Virus record (IMG/VR): IMGVR_UViG_2713896900_000011
DNA length: 31,386 nucleotides
Source of the DNA: a virus
Taxonomy: Duplodnaviria; Heunggongvirae; Uroviricota; Caudoviricetes
Direction: 5' to 3' (one strand)
The notes beneath the pieces are model-generated. The model searched no databases. It was not told the DNA's origin and saw nothing but the letters and a program-made list of their open reading frames with translations. This document shows positions 301 to 30,405 of the stretch, one piece after another. The position numbers and the translations under genes are program-made. Each line of letters begins with the position of its first letter. The first letter of the stretch is position 1.

Positions 301-1464
301 TCACTCTTCATCTTCTGTTTCATACTCCACATCAGAAAGCCTGACCTCAAGCTCTAAGGACGTCGTGAAGCCGCTATTATTCAGAAAATGTGTCACCTTA
401 GTGATTGTCCAGTCCTGCTCGTCTATGACGCGCTTAAAGCCTGACACTCTGACCGGCGTTTCCGTGTAAATATCAGCCCGACCAGTGGCAAGGCTGATGG
501 AGAACTCCGCAACGCCCCGTTGCAGTTTGTCCCACTTCGCCTGAGCGGCGCGCATTGCCTGCGCTTTCGTGGCATATACCGTGGTCAGGGCAAAAACGTT
601 GTCAGCCCCACCGACCATGTATTCACCTTCGCGCGCTTCCGGTACTTTTGGTGCTTTCTTCTGCGTGACCGGTTTCGCTTTCGGGTGCTCCAGTGCGCGC
701 AGGTGTTTCTCTTTCTTTTTGCGTTTCAGTTTTACCTTCTGCTTTTGCGGCTTCGGGTCTTTGGTGTGTAACCACTTTGCCGTTACGCCGGTATAGGCTC
801 CACGGTCAGCAATCGCAAAATGATGACGGTCGCCGTCGCTGCGGGTGATGGTAATCTGCGGGATTTTTTTACCGCTGGACGTCACCCCCTGCCCCGCTTT
901 GAGAAACAACAGTTTTCCCATTTTTACCGACACCTCACCGCCGTTGCGTTCAGCAAGGCGGGTCAGGAATTTCGCATCAGACTCCTGCGACTGGTCGATG
1001 TGCGGGATTTTAATTCCGGCCAGTGACGGAGCAACACTGGCTTCCAGCCTGTTACGGGAGGCTATCGCCTCAACAATCGCACCGAGCGTGGTGTCATGCC
1101 AGGAGCCTTCCCGGCGGGAATTGAGCGTCCCGCGAAAATCTGCACTCCGGGCGCGGATGGTAACCACATCCGGTGCGCCCCGGTGTTCAACCTCATCAAC
1201 GGTGAATTTCCCTTTGCATACCAGGGCAAAACCTTTCCAGCCGATATACACCGTCAGGACAGCGCCACGAACCGGCAGCCCGACCTGCCCGTCGGCATCG
1301 TTCAGTTCAATATCAAGCTGGTCAGCCTCAAAGCCCCGGTTATCCGTCAGGGTCATGCTCATCAGACGGTCGCTGATATTGCCGGTAATATCCCTGCTGT
1401 CGAGCATCAGCATGTAATCCGGCGTCAGCGTACTGCCTGCATCAAATGTCAGCGCATCCAGCAT
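301..1464 (-). CDS. D: Tail protein D (387 aa)
   Basis: Size and position match P2 gpD (last gene of the FI-FII-E-T-U-D tail operon, next to ogr). Its start overlaps the U stop in an ATGA arrangement. Confidence 0.88.
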   Translation of the reverse strand: MLDALTFDAGSTLTPDYMLMLDSRDITGNISDRLMSMTLTDNRGFEADQLDIELNDADGQVGLPVRGAVLTVYIGWKGFALVCKGKFTVDEVEHRGAPDVVTIRARSADFRGTLNSRREGSWHDTTLGAIVEAIASRNRLEASVAPSLAGIKIPHIDQSQESDAKFLTRLAERNGGEVSVKMGKLLFLKAGQGVTSSGKKIPQITITRSDGDRHHFAIADRGAYTGVTAKWLHTKDPKPQKQKVKLKRKKKEKHLRALEHPKAKPVTQKKAPKVPEAREGEYMVGGADNVFALTTVYATKAQAMRAAQAKWDKLQRGVAEFSISLATGRADIYTETPVRVSGFKRVIDEQDWTITKVTHFLNNSGFTTSLELEVRLSDVEYETEDEE

Positions 1465-1943
1465 TATCCCGCCCCCGTCATACCCGTGAATTTAGTCGCC
1501 ATACTGCCAGCCTTACCGATGAGCGATTCTGCCTGTTTACCGATATCGCCATAAAGCGCGGCCAGTGATTCATCCACGCGGGTGAGCGACAGCGTAAAAT
1601 CAATTTTCCGGGGTGTGCCGTCTGCAAAGAAAATACTCCCTGTTTCACTCACACTGCTGATGACATACATGCCGTAAATCATGCCGGTGCCATCCAGCAA
1701 CGGCCACGCCCGGCCTTCCTCTGCCATCAGCCTGAGCGTGGTCATCGTCAGCTTCCCGCCGGTCAGTTCGGGATAAAGCACGCCGGCAAGCGTCATGTTT
1801 TCCTCACCCACACCGAGAAACTGGTAGGCATCCCGTTTACCGATACGGGAATTTGACGGCCAGCGATAATCTGATTCACGCTGCATGGTCTGGTGTGGCA
1901 GCGTCTGGCGCATAAAAACAAACATACCTAACGCGAGCATCAT
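1464..1943 (-). CDS. U: Tail protein U (159 aa)
   Basis: Size and synteny match P2 gpU, between the tape measure gene and D. Confidence 0.85.
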   Translation of the reverse strand: MMLALGMFVFMRQTLPHQTMQRESDYRWPSNSRIGKRDAYQFLGVGEENMTLAGVLYPELTGGKLTMTTLRLMAEEGRAWPLLDGTGMIYGMYVISSVSETGSIFFADGTPRKIDFTLSLTRVDESLAALYGDIGKQAESLIGKAGSMATKFTGMTGAG

Positions 1944-1957
1944 TTTTCGTCACCTCC

Positions 1958-4405
1958 TTAACCGTCATGCATCATGCTGGCACGGGCGCGCGCACGTTTA
2001 TCCCGCTCGTATTTTTCGAGCGCATCCTGTAACTGGCGGTCAAGCTGTGTCCCCGGCGCAGTACCACCCGTAAGGCTGATGTGATATTCGTTTTTACTCT
2101 GGTCCACATAAGAGCGACCAGCCGGTGCCGTGACCGGCTGATAAGCCTGATAGCCTGCATAAGAGCTGGTCGCCGGAATATAACCACTGCTGCCATACGT
2201 GGCGGCTTGAGTTCTGGCGGCGGTCTGGTCAAGTGTGTCTGACTCTTTGTTGATAACACCGAGTTTTTCCAGTACCCAGTCAATACCACTGCGCAGTTTG
2301 TTGAACGCATTAAGCGGCAGCATCAGCGCGTCAGCCAGTGCCTGCCCGAACATGACACCCGTGTCACGGCAACGGTTCAGGGTGTCCTGGGTGGCTTTAA
2401 CCGGGGCAGTCAGGTTTTTAAACCACTGCCACGCGGCCTGTAACTTTTCGCCCAGCCAGTCAAACACCGGCTTCAGTGGCGTGAACAGCTCCCCCACCGG
2501 CGCAAATGCCGCTTTCAGCCCTTCAACCACACCGCCAAAGAATGCGCTGACAGGCTCCCAGTATTTACGGATAAGCAACGCTCCGGCGACAATGGCGGCC
2601 ACCACGGCCACAACCGGCCAGCTAATCGCCCCGATGGCCGTCATAACGGCACTGCCAACCGTCGTGAAGATTGCCCCCATTGCGCCTGCTGCCGCTATGA
2701 TGGCATTGATGCCGGTGATAACCGGCCAGGCTACAAGACCAATGGCACCGATGATGCCAGTAAGCGCCAGTGCGCCACCGGCAATGATGCCGATGGTTGA
2801 CGCCAGTGATTTGTTTTTCTGTATCCAGCCGTCGAGTTTTAACACATACTTTGTGGCCGTCTGCGTGAGCTTACGCAGCGCGCCTTCCTGCTGGTCAAAC
2901 AGGTCAGTCCCCACCGCCTCATAAGCGGACTGAAACTCCTTAAAGTCACCGCCGAGGTTGTCCTGCATGATATTTACCAGCTCGGCGGTCTTCCCGTCTG
3001 AGGCTTTAAACGCAGCGGTCAGTTTGTCCAGCTTTGCGGTTGAGGCGGCAGTCATCAGCACGGCGGCGGCTGAGCTGGCCTCCTCCCCGAAAATGGTTTT
3101 CATGTATTCAGCCTGCTGGGCAGTACCGAGCCGGTTTTTCTCAAAACTGGCCTGCATTTCTTTCAGAATGGTAAATACTGGTCGGGTATTCCCCTTACTG
3201 TCTGAGGTTTTCACGCCAAGCTCTTTGAGTGCATCCCATGCTTTTCCCGTCGGTGCCTGCAGGCGACTTAACACGGCACGGCTTCCCGTCCCCGCCATTG
3301 AGCCTGTGATTTTTGCATCATGCAGCGCCCCGACCATTGCGGCGGTTTCTTCAATGCTGACACCGGCATTTTTTGCCACTGGTGCGGCATAGGTCAGCGC
3401 ATCGCTCATGCCGTCAAAATCGGCGGCGGTTTTGTTCATCGTCATGGAGAGAACATCCCCGATATGAGCGACCTTATCGTTTGAAAGCTGAAAGGCAGAT
3501 TTCATCCCCATCAGCAGAGCGGCGTTTTCTTCCATCGTGCGGCGGTTCGCCAGCGCCATATTCAGTGTGACCGGCGTTGCCGCCTGAATGGCATCAACAT
3601 CCCCACCGGCTTTCGCAATAATAATCTGCGCGCCGGCCGCATCATCCGCTGAGGCGGCGGTGTTGTCACCGAGCTGGCGCGCCTGCTTGCGTAGTGCAGC
3701 CATTTCGGCGGAGTCTTTTGCCACACCGAGCACAGCCTGCAATTCTGAGTTTTTCTGCGCAAACTCATAACCGGGCATCAGCAACTTAACTCCGGCCATC
3801 GTTCCCGCCGCCGCAATCCCCACACCGGCAGCGCCCACCGAGGCCATATTTCCGGCCAGCTCCTTTCCGGCCTGATAACGCTGTTTTACTGCGTTAAGTT
3901 TTGCCTGTTGTGCACTGACACGCGCCAGCGCGTCACGCTGACGGTTAAGCTGTGCGGTGGTTTCACTGATACGGTTTTTCAGTCCCTGCTCATCATGTGC
4001 AAGATTGCGGGTATTAATTCCCACAGCGGCCAGTTCCCGCTGCTGGCGTTTAACGGAATCCGTCAGGCGGTTATATTTCGCCTGTAAGTCCTCCGCCGCT
4101 CGCTTTGCTGATTCCAGCACTTTCGCCTGAGCACGTGTCGGACGTTCGGTGTTTTTAAACTGTGTGGCAAGGGCTTCGGCCTCCTGCCGTGCCTTTTCAA
4201 GTGCATGACCAGTCACGGCGAGCTGTGCACTGGTCTTGCGAAATCCCTCAATACGGGATGCCTGACCGTTCAGCTCGCGCAGTGATTTTTGTGTTTCCCG
4301 GATATCCCCCGACAGCGATTTGCTCGCTGTACGGATGGATTTAAACGGGCGGGATGCCTGGTCAACAGCCCTGAGCAATACCTGTAATTTTACATTGTTA
4401 CTCAT
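1958..4405 (-). CDS. T: Tail tape measure protein T (815 aa)
   Basis: An 815-aa protein with long coiled-coil-like Ala/Gln/Arg-rich stretches and a central hydrophobic Gly/Ala-rich segment, placed right after E/E'. This is the expected tape measure position and size for P2. Confidence 0.9.
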   Translation of the reverse strand: MSNNVKLQVLLRAVDQASRPFKSIRTASKSLSGDIRETQKSLRELNGQASRIEGFRKTSAQLAVTGHALEKARQEAEALATQFKNTERPTRAQAKVLESAKRAAEDLQAKYNRLTDSVKRQQRELAAVGINTRNLAHDEQGLKNRISETTAQLNRQRDALARVSAQQAKLNAVKQRYQAGKELAGNMASVGAAGVGIAAAGTMAGVKLLMPGYEFAQKNSELQAVLGVAKDSAEMAALRKQARQLGDNTAASADDAAGAQIIIAKAGGDVDAIQAATPVTLNMALANRRTMEENAALLMGMKSAFQLSNDKVAHIGDVLSMTMNKTAADFDGMSDALTYAAPVAKNAGVSIEETAAMVGALHDAKITGSMAGTGSRAVLSRLQAPTGKAWDALKELGVKTSDSKGNTRPVFTILKEMQASFEKNRLGTAQQAEYMKTIFGEEASSAAAVLMTAASTAKLDKLTAAFKASDGKTAELVNIMQDNLGGDFKEFQSAYEAVGTDLFDQQEGALRKLTQTATKYVLKLDGWIQKNKSLASTIGIIAGGALALTGIIGAIGLVAWPVITGINAIIAAAGAMGAIFTTVGSAVMTAIGAISWPVVAVVAAIVAGALLIRKYWEPVSAFFGGVVEGLKAAFAPVGELFTPLKPVFDWLGEKLQAAWQWFKNLTAPVKATQDTLNRCRDTGVMFGQALADALMLPLNAFNKLRSGIDWVLEKLGVINKESDTLDQTAARTQAATYGSSGYIPATSSYAGYQAYQPVTAPAGRSYVDQSKNEYHISLTGGTAPGTQLDRQLQDALEKYERDKRARARASMMHDG

Positions 4406-4825
4406 TCGTGTTTCCGCTTCGCCGGAGCGCCTTTTCGCGCCATGTGATGAGTTCGGTCAGGCTCATGGGATACAGTTCTGATGGCGGCCAGTGAAATATC
4501 ACTGCCACATCCGCCATCAGGTCATCGACCGAGAGATTTTTCGGGAACGTCACTGCACCGAGTTCGGCGACAAAAAACCGACCACCTTACCGGCCAGCGC
4601 CACAAGGTCAGGCAGTTCCAGCGCGGCGACTTCCTGCTCGGTCAGCATCGGTGCCGTCATGCGCGGCAGCACTTTAATCAGTGCATCGACTTCGGAGTTT
4701 GCAACCGCAGCCAGACTGACACCGCGCAGCGTCCCGGCACTGGGTTTCATCAGCGTGACCTGTTCGATAACCTGCTCACCACGTTTGACCGGATTGTCCA
4801 GGGTAATGACATTTTCTTTGTTCAT
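4398..4825 (-). CDS. E': Tail assembly chaperone E+E' (about 141 aa), made by a programmed -1 ribosomal frameshift
   Basis: The slippery heptamer T-TTT-TTG sits at 4571-4577 (minus strand, codons G-F-L of E). Hand translation of the -1 frame from there reads VAELGAVTFPKNLSVDDLMADVAVIFHWPPSELYPMSLTELITWREKALRRSGNTNE and ends at a TAA at 4398-4400, overlapping the T start. The length agrees with P2 E+E' (142 aa). Confidence 0.75.
4550..4825 (-). CDS. E: Tail assembly chaperone E (91 aa, in-frame product)
   Basis: A 91-aa ORF ending ...VGFLSPNSVQ, in the P2 gpE position between FII and T. Confidence 0.85.
   Translation of the reverse strand: MNKENVITLDNPVKRGEQVIEQVTLMKPSAGTLRGVSLAAVANSEVDALIKVLPRMTAPMLTEQEVAALELPDLVALAGKVVGFLSPNSVQ
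4571..4577 (-). other. -1 frameshift slippery site (TTTTTTG)
   Basis: Read directly: the minus strand gives GGT TTT TTG near the 3' end of E. Confidence 0.75.
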
Positions 4826-4881
4826 GGTTTTCTCACTTCTGAATCGGGGTTAACCGGTCAGCCAGGCTGACCGGATGAAAA

Positions 4882-5400
4882 TCACAGGCCGATATTGCGG
4901 CGGTGTTGCTCCAGCCGGTCGACGCCGTTCACCTTCTCAATCATGTTGATGGTGTCGATTTCGACCAGCTCCTTACCGTCCATCGTCAGCCGGAAATAGG
5001 TGCAGACCACGGAGATTTTCGACTCGGTGTCTTCTCCCTGTTTACCCTCGCCAGTGTCGATTTCTTTCTGACGTCCACGCATGACCACCTCGACGGCCAC
5101 CGTTTCGCCGGTATCGTCGCGCTGGTAAGAGCCTGCAAAACGAATCGGTACGGCATCCACACCGGTTGCGGCGTAAAGCTCCCAGATAACCGAATCCGGG
5201 AAGCCACCGAGCGACCACTCCATTGACAGCGCATCGTCATCAAGGCCGAGGTCTACCGGTGCGCTGCCGTTCATCCCCGCACCGCGATAGTTTTCGAGCT
5301 TACGGGTCAGTTTTGGCAGCGTGACGGACTTTGCAACGCCCTGATAGCTGTAGCCGTTCAGAAAGACGTTCATTAACTTGAGTTTGCGCGGCATTGCCAT
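4882..5400 (-). CDS. FII: Tail tube protein FII (172 aa)
   Basis: Size and synteny match P2 gpFII, immediately downstream of the sheath gene. Confidence 0.88.
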   Translation of the reverse strand: MAMPRKLKLMNVFLNGYSYQGVAKSVTLPKLTRKLENYRGAGMNGSAPVDLGLDDDALSMEWSLGGFPDSVIWELYAATGVDAVPIRFAGSYQRDDTGETVAVEVVMRGRQKEIDTGEGKQGEDTESKISVVCTYFRLTMDGKELVEIDTINMIEKVNGVDRLEQHRRNIGL

Positions 5401-5412
5401 CGGTCAGGCTCC

Positions 5413-6603
5413 TTAATTGCTGTTAACCGAGGTAACCAGACTTGCCAGGTATCTGGAAGTAATACGCTGGCGCAGGGTCAGGTTTTCGAGAGGAGGCACC
5501 GGGGTATAGTCGTAGTCGATATACAGTTTTCCGGCCTTGAGGGTTTCCGCATCATTGGCTTCTTCACTGAACCAGCATGTGCCATCCACGATATAACCGT
5601 TGTTTTTCAGTTCGCGGAATTTGGCATTAATGCCATCAATGATGTCACGAATCAGCGTTGCGGTAATTGGCTTATCAATAGCCCACATGTGCGCCTCGGC
5701 CATCGTGTCGGCCAGTACCTGCGCGGTGCGGGTGTAGCTTTCAAAGAGGAACAGCGGGTCATCAGAGCAGGTACGGTTACCCCAGAAGCGGAAGCCGTCG
5801 CGGCGAATCAGCGTAGTGATGCCTGACTCGTTAAGCAGGTCAGCATCAGTGCCGGACTTCTGCAAATCCCAGAATACAGAGGCGCTGATGCCGGTAACAC
5901 CATTTACCCCGACGTTGGACAGCGTTTTATGCCAGCCCTGCTCCTGGTCGATTTTGGCACGCAGCCCCAGCGCACGGGCGGTGGCATACGCGGTGGCAGT
6001 GGTACTGGTAACCGTATCCCATGCGAGGAAATCCGGCCAGATGACCATCAGCTCACGCTGGCTGAAATTCTGACGGTAGGCTTTTGCCTCGGAAATGGTT
6101 TTACAGCCCCATGCGCTAATATACCCGAATGCATTCAGTTCCTGGCATACCGATGCCAGTGCGACGGCAACCTCTTTGGTGTCCAGTCCCGGTACGCCGA
6201 GAATGCGTGGTTTAACGCCGGTAACCGACTCAGCCCCCATCAGGGCTTTCAGTCCGGTGTACTGACCGTTTTCGTCGGTGGTGCCGATGATATTGGAAAC
6301 GGTCTGCGCGAGTTTCGTTTCCTCGTCGTCGCCGGTGCCGTCTTCCACACGCACGACAACGGTGACCGGTTTTGACTGGTCGGCGATGGCCTGCAACGAT
6401 GCCGCCAGCGTGCCTTTTTTACCGGCCTTTGCAATTGCGCTCTGCACATTGGTTATCAGCACAGGTTTATTGAGGGGGAAGGTTTCCGCATCCGCATCGC
6501 TGGCCGTGCAGACCATGCCGACAATGGCAGTGGATACGGTGGAAATGACGCGGGTGCCGTCGTTAATCTCCAGCACCTGCACGCCGTGATGATAGTCACT
6601 CAT
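5413..6603 (-). CDS. FI: Contractile tail sheath protein FI (396 aa)
   Basis: Size and synteny match P2 gpFI, the first gene of the tail operon. Confidence 0.9.
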   Translation of the reverse strand: MSDYHHGVQVLEINDGTRVISTVSTAIVGMVCTASDADAETFPLNKPVLITNVQSAIAKAGKKGTLAASLQAIADQSKPVTVVVRVEDGTGDDEETKLAQTVSNIIGTTDENGQYTGLKALMGAESVTGVKPRILGVPGLDTKEVAVALASVCQELNAFGYISAWGCKTISEAKAYRQNFSQRELMVIWPDFLAWDTVTSTTATAYATARALGLRAKIDQEQGWHKTLSNVGVNGVTGISASVFWDLQKSGTDADLLNESGITTLIRRDGFRFWGNRTCSDDPLFLFESYTRTAQVLADTMAEAHMWAIDKPITATLIRDIIDGINAKFRELKNNGYIVDGTCWFSEEANDAETLKAGKLYIDYDYTPVPPLENLTLRQRITSRYLASLVTSVNSN

Positions 6604-6902: not shown

Positions 6903-8009
6903 ATGGATGTCAATGAACTTAGAGAGTTACTTATCAAGTATAATGGCCTTCAAAATACTGATGAAGTCTATACGTTTTATTATGATGAAACGAATAACAT
7001 TCGAAAACTATATTTAAAAGATTCTGGCTTTAATGTTGTAAAGGCGGATAACTTCATCCTTGCAGGAATACTACACAAAGGGTTAAGCACTGACAGCGAT
7101 TATTCAACCCTGTTTCAAAAGCTTAATCTTCAAAAAAGTGTCAATGAGTTAAAACTCAGATATATCGCTAAGGGTAGTTTTTTGGATATGCTTAAATCTG
7201 ATAAGCTTTTAATTATTCTAAACTGGCTTATCGAAAACAATTTCTACATCCATTATTTTAATCTTAATATCACATACTGGTCTATTATTGACATTGTTGA
7301 TTCTATTATTGGAGAGCTACACAATCCTTTTTATATCATGAACCACATGTCACTTAAGAGCGATTTTTATGAGCTTGCCAATAGCAATCCCGATGTTTTC
7401 CTGAATGCTCTACATAAATTTAACTACCCCGATATTCCAGAAGAAAAAATTTATGAGTTTTGCCTCTGGCTTATCGATTTTACATGCATGCACAGTTGTA
7501 TGCTGCCAGATTTTCGAGCACACGCACTCGAAAATTTGGTTAAAGAATCTCTAAAAATCGAAGAACTACCGTTCATATCGGGATTTCATGGTCGAAAACT
7601 GATCGATAGCTTTATGGTATTTTATTTAAGAAACTTGTATCTATTTAAAAATTCCGTTCACATATTTGATGAAGAAAAAAGCATTCAAGATGAAGTTAAA
7701 AACTTCCCGTTAACTGAAAATGGCATACCAATACAGAATCATGAATTCGTTAAATCCCACAACTCAGAGGCTATCCAACTATCTGATGTTATCGCAGGCT
7801 TTTTGGGTAAGTATTTTTCTTACTTAAAAGATGTAAATGACGAGCAATTAGCGATTGATAAGTCAGCCTTAACGAGCAAGCAATTTAAGACCCTTTCTGC
7901 GTTAAAACACATTATTGATGTTTCTGATGATGTTAGCAGAGGATTTTTTAATGAAGTTAGCAGCGAGGGAGAGCGACGGAGAAATAATCGTTTTTTACAT
8001 GGCGTATAA
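6903..8009 (+). CDS. AT-rich cargo protein (368 aa) at the Z/fun-equivalent locus; DUF3800-like motifs; candidate anti-phage/abortive-infection protein
   Basis: A visibly low-GC gene on the opposite strand to the flanking late genes, with a strong SD. The N-terminal motif YTFYYDETNN and the C-terminal motif AIQLSDVIAGFL resemble the conserved DESG and QxADxxAG motifs I associate with DUF3800. The family assignment is from memory, not a search. Confidence 0.6.
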   Translation: MDVNELRELLIKYNGLQNTDEVYTFYYDETNNIRKLYLKDSGFNVVKADNFILAGILHKGLSTDSDYSTLFQKLNLQKSVNELKLRYIAKGSFLDMLKSDKLLIILNWLIENNFYIHYFNLNITYWSIIDIVDSIIGELHNPFYIMNHMSLKSDFYELANSNPDVFLNALHKFNYPDIPEEKIYEFCLWLIDFTCMHSCMLPDFRAHALENLVKESLKIEELPFISGFHGRKLIDSFMVFYLRNLYLFKNSVHIFDEEKSIQDEVKNFPLTENGIPIQNHEFVKSHNSEAIQLSDVIAGFLGKYFSYLKDVNDEQLAIDKSALTSKQFKTLSALKHIIDVSDDVSRGFFNEVSSEGERRRNNRFLHGV

Positions 8010-8108
8010 TCGTAAGGGGTAAATTCTGCTTTTGGCACAGGGCGAACTGTCAGATTGGTTTTCACTCTGTGCCATAGATGTATAAACTCACATCAGAGCT
8101 AATACGAT

Positions 8109-8687
8109 TTATTGCGGCATTTCTGGCCATTCTATATCCGGAGTATTTTCCGACTGAACGCGATTCAGTAGCACACGGTATTTTTTCCAGTGTGTCAGGC
8201 TTAACCTTTCTTCCTCGGTAGCCATATCTAAATCGACAGCATCCTGCAGCGTGGCAATAATTTCACCTGCATATGCAATCAGCTCTTTCTTCTGAGAGTC
8301 AGCCGCTCTGACAAGCGCATCACGCTCTGCATTCTCATCATTCACCCACGCATTTCCGTTCCATTTCTGATAATCCCCATCCGGGGAAATGGCTGTCACG
8401 TCTGGAGGTAATGCGCCAAGTTCAGAAATATAAATGGCTGCTCCTGTTTTTGTTTCATAGACAGTCTTTCCACGATGGTCTTCCACCAGATCCCATTTCA
8501 TTTCATCTGCATTGAAAACGGCGGCAAAACCCACCGGAATATCTGGAGGTGCAATGTCTGTACTGTTTGCTGGAAGACCTGTATGCGGCGGAATATATGC
8601 GTCACTTTCGCCAATAAATTCATTGGTTCCATCAAGTAAATTGAAAACGCGGATAGTTTGTGTCTCTGCACTCATTCTGAAAGTCAT
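8109..8687 (-). CDS. G: Tail fiber assembly protein G (192 aa)
   Basis: Immediately downstream of H, with its ATG overlapping the H stop by one nucleotide. Size and position are typical of P2 gpG/Tfa chaperones. The true start may be the internal MSAETQ. Confidence 0.8.
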
Positions 8688-10504
8688 TATGCCAGCCTCA
8701 CAATATAGTTATACGCAACGTTTTTTACGGTGTTCTCTGAATTACCTGTGGCACTTACAGTGACGGTATGACTATGCGCGCCAATCGCAATGGAATGGCT
8801 GTGAGCACCAATGCCAACCGTGTGATTATGCTGACCAATGTCGACTGTATGGGCGTGTGCTCCCGCAGAGCTTGACACCTGGTTGGTTCCTGATACCTGT
8901 ACGCGTTGTTTACCCCCGATGGAGTCACCACCGTAACGACCACCGACAGTGTGCGTATGTGCTCCTGTATTGTTTGTCGTTTTTGTCCCGTGGTTAAACG
9001 TGCTAACCGTTTTTGTCCCGTAATCAAACGAGCTGGTCGTTTTCGTTCCCAAATCCGTACTGGATGCACTGGCACTGTGGGTATGCGATTTAATGCCATC
9101 CTGTTCCTGAGACAATACAGCGCGACCACTGGCGGGTTTGCCCTTGATTGTCCAGCCGCGCATATCTGGAATCACCCCTGACGGATAAGCTGCTGCAAGC
9201 AGGGGATAGGCTGCTTTATCAAAAGTCTGCCCCTGCATCAGGGCATAGCCTGTAGGTACTGAATCAGAAGGCCACGGGATTGGAGCGCCTACCGGAAATG
9301 AATCCTGCGGTGTCCATGGTGTCCAGCCACCCGTTGAATACTGGCTGCGGGTATAGCTTCTTGATGTGTTATAGACATAGTAAATTTGTGTTATTCCGGC
9401 ATTTCTAAGCACAACCAGAGTACCTGCAAGATTCTCCGGGTATTTCAGCGATGCGCTTGTATTCGCATTCAGTGGCTGATGGTACAGTCCCGGCGTTTTG
9501 TAATTATCCAGATTCTGGTTTGCACCAATCCCAATACTCTGACCGTTAAAAATATCCTGCGATGTAATATTGACATCATTGGTCAGCGGTTTGCCATTGA
9601 CCTTACGCTCACCAGGAACGCGCCCGTTTGCATTGTCATTCGCGGCTTTAACCGCTTTTGGAGTCGCGGCAAGTGTTTCAGAATCGCTGTTAGTGGCGCT
9701 GCTTAACTGAACAATCCCTTTTCGTGCCGTGGTGGCGTCCTGTGCAGTGTATTTGCCATTAGCAAGGTCATATGCTGTCTTAACCGCCTTTGGCGTTGCT
9801 GCGAGCGTCTCAGATTCGCTGTTGATGGCACTACTTAGCTGAACAAGACCTTTTCGCCCCGTGCTGGCGTCCTGTGCGGTATATTTCCCGTTAGCAAGGT
9901 CATAGGCGTCCTTTACCGCTTTCGGCGTTGCGGCCAGTGTTTCAGACGTGCTGTTGGTCGCGCTGCTTAACTGAGTAAAACCTTTTGCGGTCAGCGAGGC
10001 GTCCGGGTGACGTCGTGACTGTTCATGCTCTGCAATCTTGTCATCAACGTAATCCTGCGTTGCCATCACCGTTGTGGTGTCAATGGTCAGCTCCACTGAG
10101 GCCACACTGCTGACGATGATGACCATGCGGCAGGTCTGCGAACGCCCTGAGCCTTCGGCAAGGGCAGGCTTATAACTTTCGGCCATGTTCGCCACGGCAA
10201 TTAACGTTCCCGCATCATCGTACAGGCCAAGCTCACGCGTCCAGAAACCGCCCACCTCCGGCGGGATAACCAGCTCTGCGATAATATAATTACTGTGTCG
10301 ATTGCCCTGACTGATTTTATTCAGGGTATGTCGCCAGACCTCATTAACAAGTTTTGTCTGTCCGGCATCCGGGACAGGCAATTTACCACCACCATCCCCG
10401 ACGGCCATCGTGGTAATGTTGACCTTCCGCCCTCCCGGCGCGGTTGCCGCTGCCAGCTTTGCTGCACCGGCAGTGGTGATAACGGTTTTGAATTTTGTGC
10501 TCAT
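8687..10504 (-). CDS. H: Tail fiber protein H (605 aa)
   Basis: The N-terminal region matches the P2 gpH position after I. It contains three tandem ~40-aa repeats ([12 protein letters not shown]...) and a C-terminal His-x-His array. Confidence 0.88.
9634..10000 (-). repeat. Three tandem ~120-bp coding repeats inside tail fiber gene H
   Basis: The protein shows LSSATNS(T/E/D)[12 protein letters not shown](D/T/A)[14 protein letters not shown] three times; the DNA shows matching near-identical ~120-bp units. Boundaries are approximate. Confidence 0.7.
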
Positions 10505-12298: not shown

Positions 12299-12930
12299 AA
12301 AGGACTCCCGGTTGTGCCGCCGCTGTCGCCGGGGTGTTTATGGGTATGCAGTACCTTCCCGTTTGATGAGAGCTCACCGCCGTTGTGTTCAATGTTGCCA
12401 CGCATCGTCCCGCCCTTCTGCACTTCCAGCGTGCCGGTAATCAGCCTGTTGGTGCAGACCACCTCCGGTGTGTCCAGTGTGATGCGGGTTGACGCTTTCA
12501 CCATGACCACCGGCACCGTGGCAGTAACAGAATCAGAAGCCGTCACGCTGGCCGTTTTAATTCCGCTTACCGTGAGTGCACTGGTTTCGGGTTCATACTC
12601 AATCACCGCCCCGTCAGGGAAACGGATATGCAGGGCATCCGCCGACGCAGACGGCGCGGGGTTATCGCCGGAATAAATCCCCGGCAGAACAAACGCCGTG
12701 TCAAGTTCACCGCCCACGGCCAGAATCAGCACCTGCTCCCCCACGGAAGGTGCCCACCATGTGCGCGAACGCCCGGCACGACAGGTCAGCCACTGAAGCC
12801 AGTCGGTGCACATGCCGCCGGTCTGCACACGGCAGCGACCGGATTTAAGGTTGGTTTCGACGACAAGGCCGGTGCGAATCATGTTGCGCAGTGCGCGCGC
12901 GAGTTCCTGGATATTTGCGAGAGTGTTCAT
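12295..12930 (-). CDS. V: Baseplate spike/assembly protein V (211 aa)
   Basis: Size and synteny match P2 gpV. Confidence 0.85.
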   Translation of the reverse strand: MNTLANIQELARALRNMIRTGLVVETNLKSGRCRVQTGGMCTDWLQWLTCRAGRSRTWWAPSVGEQVLILAVGGELDTAFVLPGIYSGDNPAPSASADALHIRFPDGAVIEYEPETSALTVSGIKTASVTASDSVTATVPVVMVKASTRITLDTPEVVCTNRLITGTLEVQKGGTMRGNIEHNGGELSSNGKVLHTHKHPGDSGGTTGSPL

Positions 12931-12996
12931 AACGGGAAGGATGCCGCCGGGTCATACCGGCGGCAATGTGACGATGAGGTGTCAGGAGTGGCACAA

Positions 12997-22219: not shown

Positions 22220-22867
22220 TTATTCCTTCGGTTCATGATAGAAGTTTATGGGATAATGAATCACTTCATAATCTAAATTTGATACAGAATGTTTATGAGT
22301 ACTATAAAATACTAGTGGATTCTTATCACACTGCTGAATATTTATTTCTCTAGACGCATGAATTTTGGGCGCATTTTTAGTCAAGTAGGCAATATACTGT
22401 TGCATTACAGCAGAGCAAAGCTTATTTTTTGTATAGATAATTACACCACCCGATGCACTATCAACAGTCCCTGTACTATATCGCTCAGTAAGTTGCGAAT
22501 ATCCCTTAAAAAGGTACGAATATCCTGATGAGTGTTTCTTGGCTTCGCCATGCCATGTAAAATCTGCTAATTGAATTGTAATATCGCAATGACCGCGCTG
22601 ATTAACTTCATGATAAGCTCTTATCCCTAAGAATTCGTTATCTATTATTCCCAGAAGATGAAGTGTCAATTGGTCTTCGGTAAGTTCAAAGCCCATTTTG
22701 TTTGCATTTTGCTCAATTTTTCTTACTGCATAATCAAGTAACTCACGAACAAAAGCCTTAAAGTTATTATAAGATTCCATAGCATATGTCACCGCTGTAA
22801 GAATCTTATTAGCATTATCTATTACGTTATTTTTACGAATATCTGCCAGACTGAAACGTTGGACCAT
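22220..22867 (-). CDS. Cargo operon gene 3 (215 aa): hypothetical protein with a possible PD-(D/E)xK-like nuclease motif
   Basis: AT-rich. Its ATG lies 1 nt after the gene 2 stop and is preceded by a GGGGAG Shine-Dalgarno. The segment GHCDITIQLADFTWHGEAKK has the D-x13-E-x-K spacing of a PD-(D/E)xK core; this is an inference only. Confidence 0.6.
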   Translation of the reverse strand: MVQRFSLADIRKNNVIDNANKILTAVTYAMESYNNFKAFVRELLDYAVRKIEQNANKMGFELTEDQLTLHLLGIIDNEFLGIRAYHEVNQRGHCDITIQLADFTWHGEAKKHSSGYSYLFKGYSQLTERYSTGTVDSASGGVIIYTKNKLCSAVMQQYIAYLTKNAPKIHASREINIQQCDKNPLVFYSTHKHSVSNLDYEVIHYPINFYHEPKE

Positions 22868-22868
22868 G

Positions 22869-23288
22869 TCAACTCCCCACTTTCTTTAAAGAAAAGAAGG
22901 GGAAAATGAAATCCTCATAATCAGTTAAAATATCACCTGTTACAGGATGTTCAAATATATGATTTTTTTCCGCATCCATAACCTCACCAACGGTTACCGG
23001 ATAAAAATCGTCATTTTCATCAACAAAAAAATACTCCAATCTTAAAAGACTTACTTTAGGATTACATAAAACCTGAATGGCGATATAAATTTTATCGTTA
23101 TTTATTTCATCCGTAAAAGAAAGATTACCACCATTCTCTTTGATATACAGATTAACAAGATCTGGATAGCTCATTAAACAGTTTTTTTTACATTGCGGGG
23201 AGAGCTTCATCAATGCATTATAGAGAGCGCATGCGATTTCACCGACATTCGCATCAGTAACGCATATTTCTTTAATAATGTCTGCCAT
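22869..23288 (-). CDS. Cargo operon gene 2 (139 aa): hypothetical protein
   Basis: AT-rich. I take the start as the ATG at 23286-23288 (MADIIKEI...), preceded by a strong GGGAGG Shine-Dalgarno. The track's start 5 codons upstream overlaps that SD. Confidence 0.6.
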   Translation of the reverse strand: MADIIKEICVTDANVGEIACALYNALMKLSPQCKKNCLMSYPDLVNLYIKENGGNLSFTDEINNDKIYIAIQVLCNPKVSLLRLEYFFVDENDDFYPVTVGEVMDAEKNHIFEHPVTGDILTDYEDFIFPFFSLKKVGS

Positions 23289-23316
23289 TGATTTCCTCCC
23301 CATACCTACTACCTTC

Positions 23317-24480
23317 TTAAACGATTAAACTCATTAAACGTTCAAAATCGTCCCGTCCCAGACAATTATTAATAATAGCATAGTTTACTGACGTGGAGCT
23401 AGAACCTCCGAGGTAACGGCGAAGAGAGCCGGGAATGATCAACTCAAGATCATCATCTAGTGATAGAAGCACATTCACTCTTGAAATTTTTATACCAATC
23501 TTGTAAAGACCTATCTGCCCTACTGCTTTAATTCCTTCTTGGTTAAAGATATCATCACGCAAATCTTTTTTTGCTTCTTTTTTCTTTTCCTGATGCGTAG
23601 TTCCCTCTGGAGTATAGAAAGATAATTCAAAAACTTGATAATCGCTTGCATTAAAAGGATAGGTGTTTTGAGCAAAAATTTGTTCAATTAGAGGGAAAAA
23701 GTCTTTTTCTGTCGAAACAAAATCAGCCCCCATATAATCGTATAATTTTCTAACAATTACGGTTTTAGAAAATGTAATTGTCTCTCCAATAACATTTTTG
23801 GGAGCATCAATAAGTATATTGATAGTGTTATCTTGTATATTTAAAATACAAACATCAAAACATTGTCTTCTAACTTTCTTTTTGGCTATGATTTCATCGT
23901 AGCTTTGATATTGTGGGATTGTTTGCGGTGAGACCTTTTCTTTTATTACTTGCTCCCTGACTGATGAAAAAAGGGCTATCACTTGATTGCTGTCAGTAGA
24001 GCAAAAGATTAGTTGAGGGCTATTTTTAGGTGTGGATAATAACTGTTGCTCATTAAGAATGTAACTTGATACATTTTGTAAAATAGTAGTGTTTGCCCAT
24101 TCTGTCTGAATGGCTAAGCTTAGCCCTGTCATGGTTGGAGCATCAATTGCCAAAGAAAAAATAGCCTTATCGCCATAGAAAAACTGACTAAAAAGAAGGT
24201 CATTAATTTTCTTTAACAATGAGTCAAATTTAACTCTGTCCGTGTCTCTAATTTCAATCAACTGCTCTTTAACTTTATTAAAAGTCGCATCCTTACCGCG
24301 ACCAAGAGAAAAACCTAATGACGACAAAACAGATTTTACTATAGACCAACTTATTCTATTAAATAGACAATTCAGACTTTTTAGTTCAATGTCAGACAGT
24401 GACGATTGTACTGTATTATTTGCTGCTAATACAGCCTGAGGGACAGATGAATTTACTGTTGTAGGGACAATGCCTGTCAT
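23317..24480 (-). CDS. Cargo operon gene 1 (387 aa): hypothetical protein
   Basis: AT-rich. The track ORF begins at a TTG at 24525; the first ATG (24478-24480, MTGIVPTT...) has a GGAG Shine-Dalgarno about 6 nt upstream. I recognise no domain. Confidence 0.6.
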   Translation of the reverse strand: MTGIVPTTVNSSVPQAVLAANNTVQSSLSDIELKSLNCLFNRISWSIVKSVLSSLGFSLGRGKDATFNKVKEQLIEIRDTDRVKFDSLLKKINDLLFSQFFYGDKAIFSLAIDAPTMTGLSLAIQTEWANTTILQNVSSYILNEQQLLSTPKNSPQLIFCSTDSNQVIALFSSVREQVIKEKVSPQTIPQYQSYDEIIAKKKVRRQCFDVCILNIQDNTINILIDAPKNVIGETITFSKTVIVRKLYDYMGADFVSTEKDFFPLIEQIFAQNTYPFNASDYQVFELSFYTPEGTTHQEKKKEAKKDLRDDIFNQEGIKAVGQIGLYKIGIKISRVNVLLSLDDDLELIIPGSLRRYLGGSSSTSVNYAIINNCLGRDDFERLMSLIV

Positions 24481-24598
24481 TGCAAACTCCAGTTCCGCTA
24501 ACAAAACCTCTAAGAATATTGGCAAGCAAGTATCTTCAAATATCAGGGAAAGTCAATCCAATAGCTCTCTTTTTGCGATGGGAAACTGTTAGCGCGCA

Positions 24599-29464: not shown

Positions 29465-29658
29465 TTCCAGACCCTCCGGCTTTTCAGAAAGGTCAGAGCC
29501 TTTTTTAACGGACTCTGTTTTTTGGTGCGGATAATGATTCCCTTGCGTCCCTTCCCGTGGGTGATGGTGAAGTCAATCGCCCTTGGGCTTTCGTTACGCA
29601 ATAACTGAGCAATACAACGCGGCTCATTCATAATCACAACCCCATCCACAAAAGCCAT
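29461..29658 (-). CDS. Hypothetical small protein (65 aa) between cox and B
   Basis: A small basic ORF with start/stop overlaps to both neighbours, in the position of P2 orf78. Confidence 0.45.
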   Translation of the reverse strand: MAFVDGVVIMNEPRCIAQLLRNESPRAIDFTITHGKGRKGIIIRTKKQSPLKKALTFLKSRRVWK

Positions 29659-29921
29659 GCATCACGCTGTTCAACCGGTCGGTTATAAAACGCCTCACGT
29701 ACAGCGCGATTAAACTCAGGAATGAAAACCCATTTTTCACCGGCACGAGCCTTCGGTTTGCAAGGATCACGCAATTCAATAATTGGTAATTTATTTGCCT
29801 TCACCATTTCACTGACGGCTGTCTTTGGCTTCCCTAATAAATCAGCAAATTTATCCACATGAACCGCATCAAGCGGATACTGAATCACATAATTTTCAGC
29901 GTCCATATATGGTACCCTCAT
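29634..29921 (-). CDS. cox: Cox (excisionase / repressor of the lysogenic promoter), about 90-95 aa
   Basis: The C-terminal half (...GEKWVFIPEFN...RDAWLLWMGL) resembles P2 Cox (...GEYWVYLPAWN...RDGWLMWLGL) as I remember it. It is the first gene of the early operon, divergent from C. The start may be the internal MDAENY. Confidence 0.8.
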   Translation of the reverse strand: MRVPYMDAENYVIQYPLDAVHVDKFADLLGKPKTAVSEMVKANKLPIIELRDPCKPKARAGEKWVFIPEFNRAVREAFYNRPVEQRDAWLLWMGL

Positions 29922-30042
29922 AGGATCCAGCCCTTTCTAAACCACTCAAAACCGTTTAGACGCTGGTTTATTCTCAAATCAATGGAACCTATATAGGTTC
30001 CAGTTTTGAGGGAATTTAGTCCCTATATAGGCACCATGTCAA
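29922..30042. promoter_or_regulatory. Immunity switch region (divergent Pe/Pc) with two CCTATATAGG palindromes
   Basis: An 18-bp perfect palindrome GGAACCTATATAGGTTCC at 29984-30001 and a second CCTATATAGG at 30022-30031, 34 bp apart, in the 121-bp gap between divergent cox and C. Confidence 0.6.
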
Positions 30043-30336
30043 ATGAAATTAAGCGAAAAGATTAAGGCCTTGCGTGAGGCTGAAGGGCTAAGCCAATCAA
30101 AATTCTGTGAAATCATAGAGTTACCGCTAAGCACACTTAAAAAATATGAAGGAGGAAACTTTGAACCCGGTGGCACAGCTTTGCTAAAAATCACTATGCA
30201 TCCCACATTCCAAAAATATGCTCTATGGCTTATGACAGATAAAACCGCGCCGGACGCAGGACAAATCGCACCGGCTCTCGCGCACATTGGGCCAGAGTCA
30301 ACAGAGTCCAACCACTCCGCGAAAAGGATTGGCTAA
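30043..30336 (+). CDS. C: Immunity repressor C (97 aa)
   Basis: The size and the C-terminal motif (...FQKYALWLMTDKTAPDAGQIAPALAHIGPE...) match P2 C repressor (...FTKYTLWFMTNQIAPESGQIAPALAHFGQ...) as I remember it. It is divergent from cox and upstream of int. Confidence 0.85.
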   Translation: MKLSEKIKALREAEGLSQSKFCEIIELPLSTLKKYEGGNFEPGGTALLKITMHPTFQKYALWLMTDKTAPDAGQIAPALAHIGPESTESNHSAKRIG

Positions 30337-30405
30337 CTCTATATAAAGATTACATTTTCACCATTTGCTACCAAGATGGTGAATACAGCGCCGGAGGGCT
30401 TTCTT

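What the first reader, a model, noticed from the sequence alone, without database searches (positions are those of the whole stretch)
4398..4825. Conserved -1 programmed frameshift producing E+E' over a TTTTTTG slippery site
Hand translation shows the heptamer T-TTT-TTG near the end of E. The -1 frame from that point stays open for 57 codons and ends at a TAA that overlaps the T start codon. This is exactly the tail-assembly-chaperone frameshift architecture known from P2 E/E' and lambda G/GT, and it supports the tail operon being intact.
Basis: partly seen in the sequence, partly recalled or inferred. Interest (0 to 1): 0.35.

Follow-up and report, generated by a model that had tools for sequence, protein, structure and literature searches.

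The report
Phage P2 E/E' tail-chaperone frameshift
This is the well-known programmed -1 ribosomal frameshift of bacteriophage P2 that makes two tail-assembly chaperones (gpE and gpE+E') from one start codon; it is present and intact in a P2-like prophage, so it is real but ordinary.

Summary
On the minus strand, gene E (4825..4550, 91 aa) carries T_TTT_TTG at 4577..4571 in the correct X_XXY_YYZ phase. From there the -1 frame runs 57 sense codons to TAA at 4400..4398, 8 nt inside the tape-measure gene T (ATG 4405..4403).

It is not merely like P2 E/E'; it is P2 E/E'. The DNA is 98.8% identical to phage P2, and gpE and gpE+E' are 100% identical to GenBank AAD03291/AAD03292 (UniProt O64312). The P2 record annotates the frameshift site.

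Across 228 distinct related sequences every one keeps an in-phase slippery heptamer and a -1 extension of 32-55 codons. Some lineages use G_GGA_AAG or A_AAT_TTT instead, which argues for ribosomal rather than transcriptional slippage. Sequence variation switches from third positions of the E frame to third positions of the -1 frame.

Two corrections:
- The curated junction is ...VVGFL|VAELG..., not ...GFF|VAELG.
- The TAA overlaps T codons 2-3, not the ATG.

All seven F-operon genes are full length.

One small open point: reporters give U_UUU_UUG only 0.1-0.8% shifting, far below what is reported for P2, and no stimulator is known.

Novelty: already known. Interest: low.

The parts
4550..4825 (-). 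Gene E (gpE, 91 aa), the zero-frame tail assembly chaperone. ATG 4825..4823, TGA 4552..4550.
   Evidence: ORF and translation. Pfam PF10109 Phage_TAC_7 at 47.8 bits against a cut-off of 25. 100% identical to P2 gpE.
4571..4577 (-). Slippery heptamer T_TTT_TTG (U_UUU_UUG in the mRNA), in phase with E codons 84 (Phe) and 85 (Leu).
   Evidence: offset 248, phase 2. Same position as the frameshift site annotated in P2. Intact in 80/80 close IMG/VR loci.
4550..4586 (-). The 37-nt stretch where the E frame and the -1 frame are both open, bounded by the -1-frame TAA at 4589..4587 and the E stop at 4552..4550. Only a shift inside it can yield E+E'.
   Evidence: It contains exactly one in-phase heptamer. 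The 37-nt figure agrees with PMC3931495.
4398..4571 (-). E' segment read in the -1 frame. G4571 is read twice, followed by 57 codons (VAELG...GNTNE) and TAA at 4400..4398.
   Evidence: Pfam PF06528 Phage_P2_GpE at E = 1.2e-21. Variation among 65 distinct close sequences falls on third positions of this frame (14/21).
4398..4825 (-). The complete E+E' coding unit (142 aa fusion, junction ...VVGFL|VAELG...).
   Evidence: Exact match to AAD03292.1 / NP_046780.1 / UniProt O64312 'Tail assembly protein E''. Identical to the P2 translation.
1958..4405 (-). Gene T (tape measure protein, 815 aa). Its ATG at 4405..4403 lies 8 nt inside the E' ORF (ATGAGTAA).
   Evidence: Pfam PF10145 at E = 1.8e-45. 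802/815 residues identical to P2 gpT.
4882..5400 (-). Gene FII (tail tube, 172 aa), immediately upstream of E.
   Evidence: Pfam PF04985 at E = 2.3e-60. 172/172 identical to P2.
5413..6603 (-). Gene FI (tail sheath, 396 aa), first gene of the F operon.
   Evidence: Pfam sheath domains. 375/396 identical to P2.
301..1943 (-). Genes U (1943..1464, 159 aa) and D (1464..301, 387 aa), the distal genes of the F operon.
   Evidence: 155/159 and 378/387 residues identical to P2.
4582..4589 (-). SD-like TAAGGTGG, 4 nt 5' of the heptamer. Possible but unproven modulator; its spacing is atypical for -1 stimulation.
   Evidence: Read from the sequence. Anti-SD duplex -8.4 kcal/mol, within the top 7% of windows in a near-identical P2-clade locus, L002. 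Not shown to be functional.

Best explanation
This is the bacteriophage P2 E/E' recoding site inside a P2-like prophage.

How it works:
- Ribosomes translating gene E, the third gene of the late F operon FI-FII-E-T-U-D, mostly terminate at TGA 4552..4550. They release gpE (91 aa), a tail assembly chaperone.
- A minority slip one nucleotide backwards on U_UUU_UUG (4577..4571). In the standard model tRNA-Phe sits in the P site and tRNA-Leu in the A site. They re-pair from UUU-UUG to UUU-UUU.
- Those ribosomes then read 57 further codons in the -1 frame to TAA 4400..4398. The product is gpE+E' (142 aa): the first 85 residues of gpE plus a C-terminal 'GpE' domain.

Inferred function, by analogy with lambda G/GT: the shared N-terminal part coats the tape-measure protein gpT, and the rarer E' domain recruits the tube protein. 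The fixed slip frequency sets the chaperone ratio, and neither protein ends up in the virion.

What is shown here:
- the sequence anatomy;
- identity to P2;
- conservation and purifying selection in both frames.

What is taken from the literature on P2:
- that the fusion is made;
- that shifting is 2-3-fold more efficient than in lambda, whose product ratio is about 30:1;
- that E' lacks its own ribosome-binding site.

The essentiality of E' is my recollection of Christie et al. 2002, which I could not read.

What is inferred:
- the dual-tRNA (versus P-site-only) slip;
- the protein-binding roles.
For: Identity to P2:
- 98.8% DNA identity to P2, whose record annotates the site.
- Only 3 differences from P2 within the 428-nt E+E' unit, and both products are 100% identical to P2's.
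- The E part hits PF10109 and the -1 part hits PF06528.
- The unit lies between the tube and tape-measure genes.

Conservation:
- 13 divergent Peduoviridae, down to about 38% identity, all keep an in-phase heptamer in the overlap and a -1 extension of 32-54 codons ending at or near the T start.
- 228 distinct sequences give TTTTTTG 169, AAATTTT 47, GGGAAAG 9, TTTTTTA 3 and none without a heptamer.
- 79/80 close loci keep the 142-aa fusion.
- Variable sites sit at codon position 3 of the E frame upstream (40/42) and at position 3 of the -1 frame downstream (14/21).

Chance: 3.3% for the ORF length alone, and none of 34 other in-phase heptamers has an extension above 26 codons.

Literature:
[quoted passage not shown] - PMC5009743: roles of lambda G/GT; efficiency in P2 is 2-3-fold higher than in lambda.
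Against: - Nothing here measures translation of this particular copy.
- In a systematic E. coli reporter study the bare heptamer is weak: U_UUU_UUG gave 0.118% without a stimulator, 0.247% with the IS911 stimulator and 0.765% with the IS3 pseudoknot (PMC4066793, Table S3). No conserved downstream RNA structure is found. The reported P2 efficiency is therefore not explained by known elements.
- The residue inserted at the junction is an annotation convention as far as I could verify. Leu fits a dual-tRNA slip; Phe fits a P-site-only slip or an extra U in the mRNA.
- The primary paper (Christie et al. 2002) could not be read.
Confidence: 0.93

Rival explanations
1. E' is translated on its own from an internal start in the -1 frame (GTG at 4553..4551, or the ATG of ...DDLMADV...). 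It would then be a separate small 'GpE family' protein, as many automatic annotations show, with no frameshift needed.
For: - ORF listing gives a 51-aa GTG ORF at 4398..4553.
- Several GenBank records annotate a separate 39-51-aa 'GpE family' CDS.
Against: - There is no usable SD before either candidate start. The best anti-SD duplex is -2.6 to -2.9 kcal/mol.
- The Mannheimia and Ralstonia representatives have no ATG/GTG/TTG at all between the junction and the conserved ADIA motif.
- Residues upstream of the conserved Met, such as (I/V)(D/E)D and LPxR, are conserved as protein.
- Published P2 work describes E' as lacking an RBS and being made as an extension of E (PMC3931495; PMC3091744).
Confidence: 0.02
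2. The fusion arises mainly from transcriptional slippage. RNA polymerase adds one extra U in the U6 run, so a subset of mRNAs encode E+E' in a single frame with junction ...GFF-VAELG....
For: - The site is a homopolymeric T6 run.
- The bare heptamer is a poor ribosomal shifter in reporters (0.1-0.8%; PMC4066793).
- Relatives with T7G and T7C runs exist (PMC3931495).
- A one-U insertion gives exactly the -1 frame.
Against: - From my own knowledge, six residues is shorter than the runs usually needed for efficient slippage by bacterial RNA polymerase.
- The run is in the X_XXY_YYZ phase in all 172 T6R sequences.
- Position 7 is always a purine, giving UUR Leu.
- Homologous genes in other lineages use G_GGA_AAG or A_AAT_TTT. 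These have no long homopolymer and can only act on the ribosome.
Confidence: 0.04
3. The -1 ORF and the heptamer are a coincidence with no function.
For: An open -1 frame of 57 codons or more occurs at 3.3% of codon positions in this window.
Against: - The -1 peptide matches a Pfam family at E = 1.2e-21.
- It is conserved, with third-position variation in its own frame.
- It is retained in 228/228 distinct relatives.
- It is identical to a protein reported as made by -1 frameshifting in P2.
Confidence: 0.01

Closest known systems
Bacteriophage P2 gpE / gpE+E' (Christie et al. 2002, J Bacteriol 184:6522; GenBank AF063097; UniProt TAP_BPP2 / TAPFS_BPP2 O64312)
   Same: Everything that could be compared:
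- the same heptamer at the same codon;
- the same 37-nt overlap;
- the same 8-nt E'/T overlap;
- 100% identical 91-aa and 142-aa proteins;
- the same flanking genes.
   Different: There are three differences from P2 within the 428 nt, and they leave both proteins unchanged. The surrounding prophage differs from P2 only in cargo loci, part of the tail fibre, and the immunity/integrase region.
Phage lambda G / GT tail assembly chaperones (Levin et al. 1993; Xu et al. 2004, 2013, 2014)
   Same: - Two overlapping ORFs between the major tail/tube gene and the tape-measure gene.
[quoted passage not shown]
- A minor fusion product and a major short product (PMC5009743).
   Different: - No detectable sequence relationship; only Phage_TAC_7 and Phage_P2_GpE are hit.
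- The lambda heptamer is G_GGA_AAG (own knowledge), although Mannheimia P2-like phages use that heptamer too.
- Efficiency in P2 is reported as 2-3-fold higher.
- P2 has a contractile tail with an added sheath.
E. coli dnaX and IS911/IS3-type -1 programmed frameshift signals
   Same: An X_XXY_YYZ heptamer decoded by tandem tRNA slippage in the same host.
   Different: - dnaX uses A_AAA_AAG with an SD-like element about 10 nt upstream and a hairpin 5-6 nt downstream (own knowledge).
- Here there is no conserved downstream structure.
- The SD-like TAAGGTGG lies only 4 nt upstream.
- U_UUU_UUG is about 50-fold weaker than A_AAA_AAG or G_GGA_AAG with the IS3 stimulator.

Membership tests
P2 gpE / gpE+E' (Peduoviridae tail assembly chaperone pair) | Sequence identity of both products to the P2 reference proteins | tested here: met
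   The 91-aa and 142-aa products are exact matches to the sequences held for P2 (AAD03292.1, O64312). They equal the P2 translations.
P2 gpE / gpE+E' (Peduoviridae tail assembly chaperone pair) | Zero-frame part belongs to Phage_TAC_7 (PF10109) and -1 part to Phage_P2_GpE (PF06528), both above the gathering score | tested here: met
   47.8 bits against a cut-off of 25, and 76.3 bits against a cut-off of 23.
P2 gpE / gpE+E' (Peduoviridae tail assembly chaperone pair) | In-phase T_TTT_TTG heptamer inside the short region where both frames are open | tested here: met
   Heptamer at 4577..4571, phase 2, and the only one within 4586..4550.
P2 gpE / gpE+E' (Peduoviridae tail assembly chaperone pair) | Located between tail tube gene FII and tape-measure gene T, with E' ending inside the start of T | tested here: met
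   FII at 5400..4882, E at 4825..4550, T ATG at 4405, E' TAA at 4400..4398.
P2 gpE / gpE+E' (Peduoviridae tail assembly chaperone pair) | The fusion protein is actually made, and E' is essential for tail assembly | not testable with these tools
   That the fusion is made is reported for P2 itself in secondary sources (PMC3091744; PMC3931495; PMC5009743). Essentiality rests on my recollection of Christie et al. 2002, which is not held. I infer that these results transfer because the sequences are identical.
Lambda G/GT-type conserved tail-chaperone frameshift (architecture class of Xu et al. 2004) | [quoted passage not shown] | tested here: met
Lambda G/GT-type conserved tail-chaperone frameshift (architecture class of Xu et al. 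2004) | Sequence homology to lambda gpG/gpGT | tested here: not met
   The Pfam scan at E <= 0.01 returns only Phage_TAC_7 and Phage_P2_GpE. No direct alignment to lambda G was made. The literature states there is no amino-acid similarity (PMC3931495). It is therefore the same architecture class but not the same protein family.
dnaX-type stimulated -1 frameshift signal | Stable RNA hairpin or pseudoknot starting about 5-9 nt 3' of the heptamer | tested here: not met
   - The 50 nt 3' of the site fold no better than shuffles (z = 0.11).
- The consensus fold of 14 relatives is -0.23 kcal/mol.
- A strong hairpin at 4520..4478 lies about 50 nt away and is not conserved.
- There are no Rfam matches at gathering score; the two hits at E <= 1 lie on the opposite strand and are far below their families' gathering scores.
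dnaX-type stimulated -1 frameshift signal | SD-like element about 10-14 nt 5' of the heptamer | tested here: not met
   In the window TAAGGTGG ends 4 nt before the heptamer. Burkholderia-type relatives do have GGGAGG/GGGGGG at 10-12 nt.
Programmed transcriptional slippage | A long homopolymeric A/T run whose reading-frame phase is irrelevant | tested here: not met
   The run is only T6. It is always in the X_XXY_YYZ phase. It is replaced by the heteropolymeric G_GGA_AAG or A_AAT_TTT in related lineages. Direct mRNA sequencing was not possible.

The most novel reading that the evidence does not exclude
The P2-type T6G site may depend on a stimulator or sub-mechanism that has not been recognised.

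The gap: in E. coli reporters the bare U_UUU_UUG heptamer shifts at only 0.12-0.77% (PMC4066793). P2 E/E' is reported to shift 2-3 times more than lambda's roughly 1:30, and no downstream structure exists.

Candidates:
- An upstream SD-like element. This is TAAGGTGG 4 nt upstream in the P2 clade. In Burkholderia-type relatives it is GGGAGG/GGGGGG 10-12 nt upstream, with Gly codon GGR in 98 of 101 distinct sequences that have Gly there, although GGC and GGT make up most Gly codons in those E genes.
- P-site-only slippage of tRNA-Phe while a slowly decoded UUG codon waits. This would put Phe, not the annotated Leu, at residue 85.
Probability: 0.25. Interest if true: 0.3.

Novelty: already known. 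Interest (0 to 1): 0.06.

Why it matters
For genome annotation, the small 'GpE family' ORF should be joined to E as a -1 frameshift product rather than called separately. Many public records still call it separately.

An intact E/E' site together with full-length FI, FII, T, U and D indicates a prophage whose tail module is probably functional.

Scientifically it adds nothing new about the mechanism. The only point of wider interest is the unexplained gap between the weak intrinsic shiftiness of U_UUU_UUG and the efficiency reported for P2.

Tried and rejected
- **Primary paper.** Christie et al. 2002 (PMID 12426340 / PMC135442) is not held. A title search up to 2003 found nothing. I used secondary sources instead. 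What I recall of its abstract (about 10% efficiency, E' essential) is marked as my own knowledge.
- **Downstream RNA stimulator.** The first 50 nt show nothing. A 100-nt fold gives z = -3.1, owing to a hairpin at 4520..4478. That hairpin is about 50 nt away, is not conserved in divergent relatives, and a G-to-A change in its 5' arm (offset 313, 8 of 67 sequences) has no compensating change in the 3' arm. Rfam gave no gathering-level hit, and only two sub-threshold, opposite-strand hits at E <= 1.
- **Structure.** A single-sequence AlphaFold2 model of E+E' was unusable (mean pLDDT 42.4), so I ran no fold search. A PDB sequence search found no relative.
- **NCBIfam.** It gave no hit for the fusion at E <= 0.01.
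- **First viral-contig scan with P2 gpE.** It returned only 99-100% identical loci. These served for the codon-position test but not for deep conservation, so I added four scans with divergent E proteins.
- **Crude gene caller.** In one search it dropped E, because a longer opposite-strand ORF (4481..4870) outcompeted it. I evaluated E by hand.
- **Locus L005.** It appears to break E', but it contains an N (assembly problem) and was excluded.
- **Errors and irrelevant hits.** Searches were tool-usage errors. PMC1635266 contained TTTTTTG only as the reverse complement of a dnaX oligonucleotide.
- **SD-like element in the P2 clade.** Its synonymous positions never vary among 65 close sequences. 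With only 3 such sites (p about 0.125) this is not significant, so I do not claim it as a functional part.
Full report
**1. What is in the sequence.** The feature is on the minus strand.
- Gene E runs from ATG 4825..4823 to TGA 4552..4550 and encodes 91 aa, ending ...AGKVVGFLSPNSVQ.
- E contains a single TTTTTTG, at 4577..4571. It starts 248 nt after the ATG (phase 2), so the zero frame reads GG[T TTT TTG]. That is a correctly phased X_XXY_YYZ heptamer over codons 84 (Phe) and 85 (Leu).
- In the -1 frame a TAA lies at 4589..4587. Both frames are therefore open only between 4586 and 4550, which is 37 nt, and the heptamer is the only in-phase slippery site in that stretch.
- After a -1 slip the ribosome reads 57 sense codons (VAELGAVTFPKNLSVDDLMADVAVIFHWPPSELYPMSLTELITWREKALRRSGNTNE) and stops at TAA 4400..4398.
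- The tape-measure gene T starts at ATG 4405..4403 (ATG AGT AAC). The E' stop therefore lies in T codons 2-3 and the two ORFs overlap by 8 nt. The stop does not overlap the ATG itself.

**2. Is it more than chance?**
- In the window's gene-like ORFs the -1 frame stays open for a median of 8 codons. Only 3.3% of codon positions are followed by 57 or more open codons.
- Of 34 other in-phase heptamers, none is followed by more than 26 open codons. E itself had to be assessed by hand because my crude gene caller preferred a longer antisense ORF.
- The -1 peptide matches Pfam PF06528 (Phage_P2_GpE) at E = 1.2e-21. The zero-frame part matches PF10109 (Phage_TAC_7, 'tail assembly chaperone proteins E, or 41 or 14').
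- The flanking genes are the tail tube gene (PF04985, 4882..5400), the sheath gene (5413..6603) and the tape-measure gene (PF10145, 1958..4405).

**3. What it is.**
- The 601-nt region is 98.8% identical to bacteriophage P2 (AF063097 / NC_001895) and 98-99% identical to about 70 other Peduovirus records.
- The P2 record annotates E, E+E' ('shares amino terminus with gpE; -1 frameshift; essential tail protein') and a 'site of -1 translational frameshift' at the base after the heptamer.
- Within the 428-nt E+E' unit the window differs from P2 at three positions, and both protein products are unchanged.
- An exact-sequence look-up shows that the 91-aa product is P2 gpE (TAP_BPP2, on at least 1000 contigs). 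The 142-aa product with junction ...VVGFL|VAELG... is AAD03292.1 / NP_046780.1 / UniProt O64312 'Tail assembly protein E''.
- The whole window is a P2-like prophage lying in reverse orientation to the P2 map, from the ogr stop (base 1) to the int stop (base 31386).
- FI, FII, E, T, U and D have exactly the P2 lengths, no internal stops, and 375/396, 172/172, 91/91, 802/815, 155/159 and 378/387 identical residues.

**4. Comparative evidence that the site is functional.**
- A tblastn of the fusion against 50,697 phage records found 424 records. In 401 of them at least 80% of the fusion is covered, and in nearly all listed examples the match is split into two pieces, as expected for two frames.
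- I examined 13 divergent Peduoviridae, down to about 38% identity. These infect Klebsiella, Salmonella, Yersinia, Burkholderia, Pseudomonas, Ralstonia, Shewanella, Aeromonas, Mannheimia and E. coli.
  - All have a -1 ORF extending 32-54 codons beyond the E stop and ending at or near the tape-measure start.
  - All have an in-phase heptamer in the overlap. Eleven have T_TTT_TTG, Mannheimia phage 1152AP has G_GGA_AAG, and E. coli phage 520873 has A_AAT_TTT.
- Five scans of IMG/VR gave 228 distinct sequences.
  - Heptamer counts were TTTTTTG 169, AAATTTT 47, GGGAAAG 9 and TTTTTTA 3. None lacked a heptamer.
  - Extensions were 32-55 codons.
- Among 80 close relatives, all keep the heptamer and 79 keep the 142-aa fusion. 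The exception, L005, contains an N.
- Among 65 distinct close DNA sequences, 40 of 42 variable sites in the E-only part are at codon position 3 of the E frame. In the E'-only part, 14 of 21 are at position 3 of the -1 frame. That is the signature of purifying selection switching frames at the site.

**5. Mechanism and rivals.**

*Best explanation.* The best-supported explanation is ribosomal -1 slippage on U_UUU_UUG. In the standard dual-tRNA model, Leu is inserted before the shift, which is the curated junction.

*Independent initiation of E' is unlikely.*
- The candidate starts (GTG 4553; the ATG of DDLMADV) have no usable SD.
- Two lineages have no start codon at all before the conserved domain.
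- Residues upstream of the conserved Met are conserved as protein.
- The literature describes E' as lacking an RBS (PMC3931495).

*Transcriptional slippage as the main source is unlikely.*
- The run is only six residues long.
- It is always in the ribosomal phase.
- Position 7 is always a purine.
- Related lineages use heteropolymeric heptamers.
- It is not formally excluded here.

*Function.* By analogy with lambda G/GT, the shared N-terminal domain coats the tape-measure protein, the rarer -1 domain recruits the tube protein, and the ratio is fixed by the slip frequency (PMC5009743). This function is inferred, not tested.

**6. Stimulators, the one loose end.**
- No downstream structure is evident.
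  - The 50 nt after the site fold no better than shuffles (z = 0.11).
  - Fourteen relatives give a consensus of -0.23 kcal/mol.
  - Rfam finds nothing at gathering score.
  - This agrees with PMC3091744.
- Yet Sharma et al. 2014 measured U_UUU_UUG at only 0.118% (no stimulator), 0.247% (IS911 stimulator) and 0.765% (IS3 pseudoknot) in E. coli. G_GGA_AAG gave 0.28, 3.8 and 43% (PMC4066793, Table S3).
- P2 is said to shift 2-3 times more than lambda's roughly 1:30. Something in the native context must therefore contribute.
- I noticed SD-like sequences upstream of the heptamer in 18 of 24 lineage clusters, scoring in the top 10% of windows in their loci.
  - Burkholderia-type relatives have GGGAGG/GGGGGG 10-12 nt upstream, a dnaX-like spacing. 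The Gly codon there is GGR in 98 of 101 distinct sequences that have Gly at that position, although GGC and GGT make up most Gly codons in those E genes.
  - The P2 clade, including the window, has TAAGGTGG (4589..4582), but only 4 nt upstream. That spacing is not expected to favour -1 shifting.
- The clusters are phylogenetically related and the motif overlaps conserved residues. This is a lead, not a finding.
- A P-site-only slip at a slowly decoded UUG would also fit. It predicts Phe rather than Leu at residue 85, so the junction peptide is the informative experiment.

**7. Comparison with what is known, and verdict.** This is a member of the P2 gpE/gpE+E' family, in fact an identical copy. 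Every testable defining feature is met. It belongs to the same architectural class as lambda G/GT without sequence homology, and it lacks the dnaX-type stimulators. It is already known (Christie et al. 2002; Xu et al. 2004; annotated in GenBank and UniProt). Interest is low.

Noticed in passing
window 22220..24525 (-), three ORFs: 22220..22867 (215 aa), 22869..23303 (144 aa), 23317..24525 (402 aa as listed from TTG): A low-GC (0.34-0.37 against 0.55-0.59 for the core) three-gene cargo replaces old/tin at the P2 cargo locus next to cos. From my own knowledge, this locus is a hotspot for anti-phage systems. The genes have no Pfam, NCBIfam or PADLOC hit, only PHROGs of unknown function (phrog_9664, 11490, 12777). 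The full-length block occurs in 1 of 5,426 complete E. coli genomes (NZ_CP162190.1, all 'hypothetical protein') and in 0 of 50,697 phage records. It may be an uncharacterised defence system.
   Followed up: partly
window 6903..8009 (+), 368 aa: The Z/fun locus of P2 is replaced by a low-GC (0.34) gene encoding a DUF3800 protein (Pfam E = 2e-7). It matches the PADLOC candidate defence model PDC-S51 at E = 1e-106 and phrog_15126.
   Followed up: partly
window 29632..31386 and 12930..12995: The immunity/cox/integrase end is only 70-80% identical to P2 or unalignable, so it is a different immunity and integrase type. The int ORF at 30376..31386 ends exactly at the window end. P2 orf30 is absent between S and V.
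   Followed up: no
window 8025..9777 (tail fibre genes: H 8687..10504, 605 aa; G-like 8109..8687, 192 aa): The distal part of tail fibre H and the fibre assembly gene differ from P2, with only patchy 76-82% matches. This suggests a different receptor specificity.
   Followed up: no
window 4478..4520 (-): A perfect 10-bp stem (CUGAUGGCGG...CCGCCAUCAG) lies inside the most conserved part of E', about 50 nt 3' of the heptamer. The 100-nt fold has z = -3.1. The stem is kept in close relatives but not in divergent ones, and shows no compensatory change. It is probably a by-product of the coding sequence.
   Followed up: yes
window 4582..4589 (-); related loci such as L100, L169, L171 about 10-12 nt 5' of their heptamers: SD-like sequences precede the T6G site in most lineages: TAAGGTGG 4 nt upstream in the P2 clade, and GGGAGG/GGGGGG 10-12 nt upstream in Burkholderia-type phages, where the Gly codon is almost always GGR. 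This may be a frameshift stimulator. I do not know whether it has been described.
   Followed up: partly
heptamer 4571..4577 (-), compared with the literature: U_UUU_UUG is among the weaker heptamers in the systematic E. coli reporter study (0.12%, 0.25% and 0.77%). P2 E/E' is reported to shift more than lambda G/GT. The discrepancy is unexplained.
   Followed up: partly
related loci L093/L213-L292 (E. coli phage 520873 type), L094/L204-L211 (Mannheimia type), L152 and two others: The slippery heptamer has been exchanged during evolution while the E/E' architecture was kept. A_AAT_TTT occurs in 47 distinct sequences, G_GGA_AAG (the lambda heptamer) in 9, and T_TTT_TTA in 3.
   Followed up: yes
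public records L085, L087, L089, L091, L092, L093: Many GenBank/RefSeq phage records annotate E' as a free-standing 39-51-aa 'GpE family' CDS, with an arbitrary start, instead of a frameshifted E+E' fusion. This is a recurrent annotation error.
   Followed up: partly
locus L005 (IMGVR_UViG_2695420821_000010, second copy): The same viral contig holds two copies of the E region (L002 and L005). The L005 copy diverges after an N within E', which suggests a mis-assembly or scaffold join rather than a real loss of E'.
   Followed up: no
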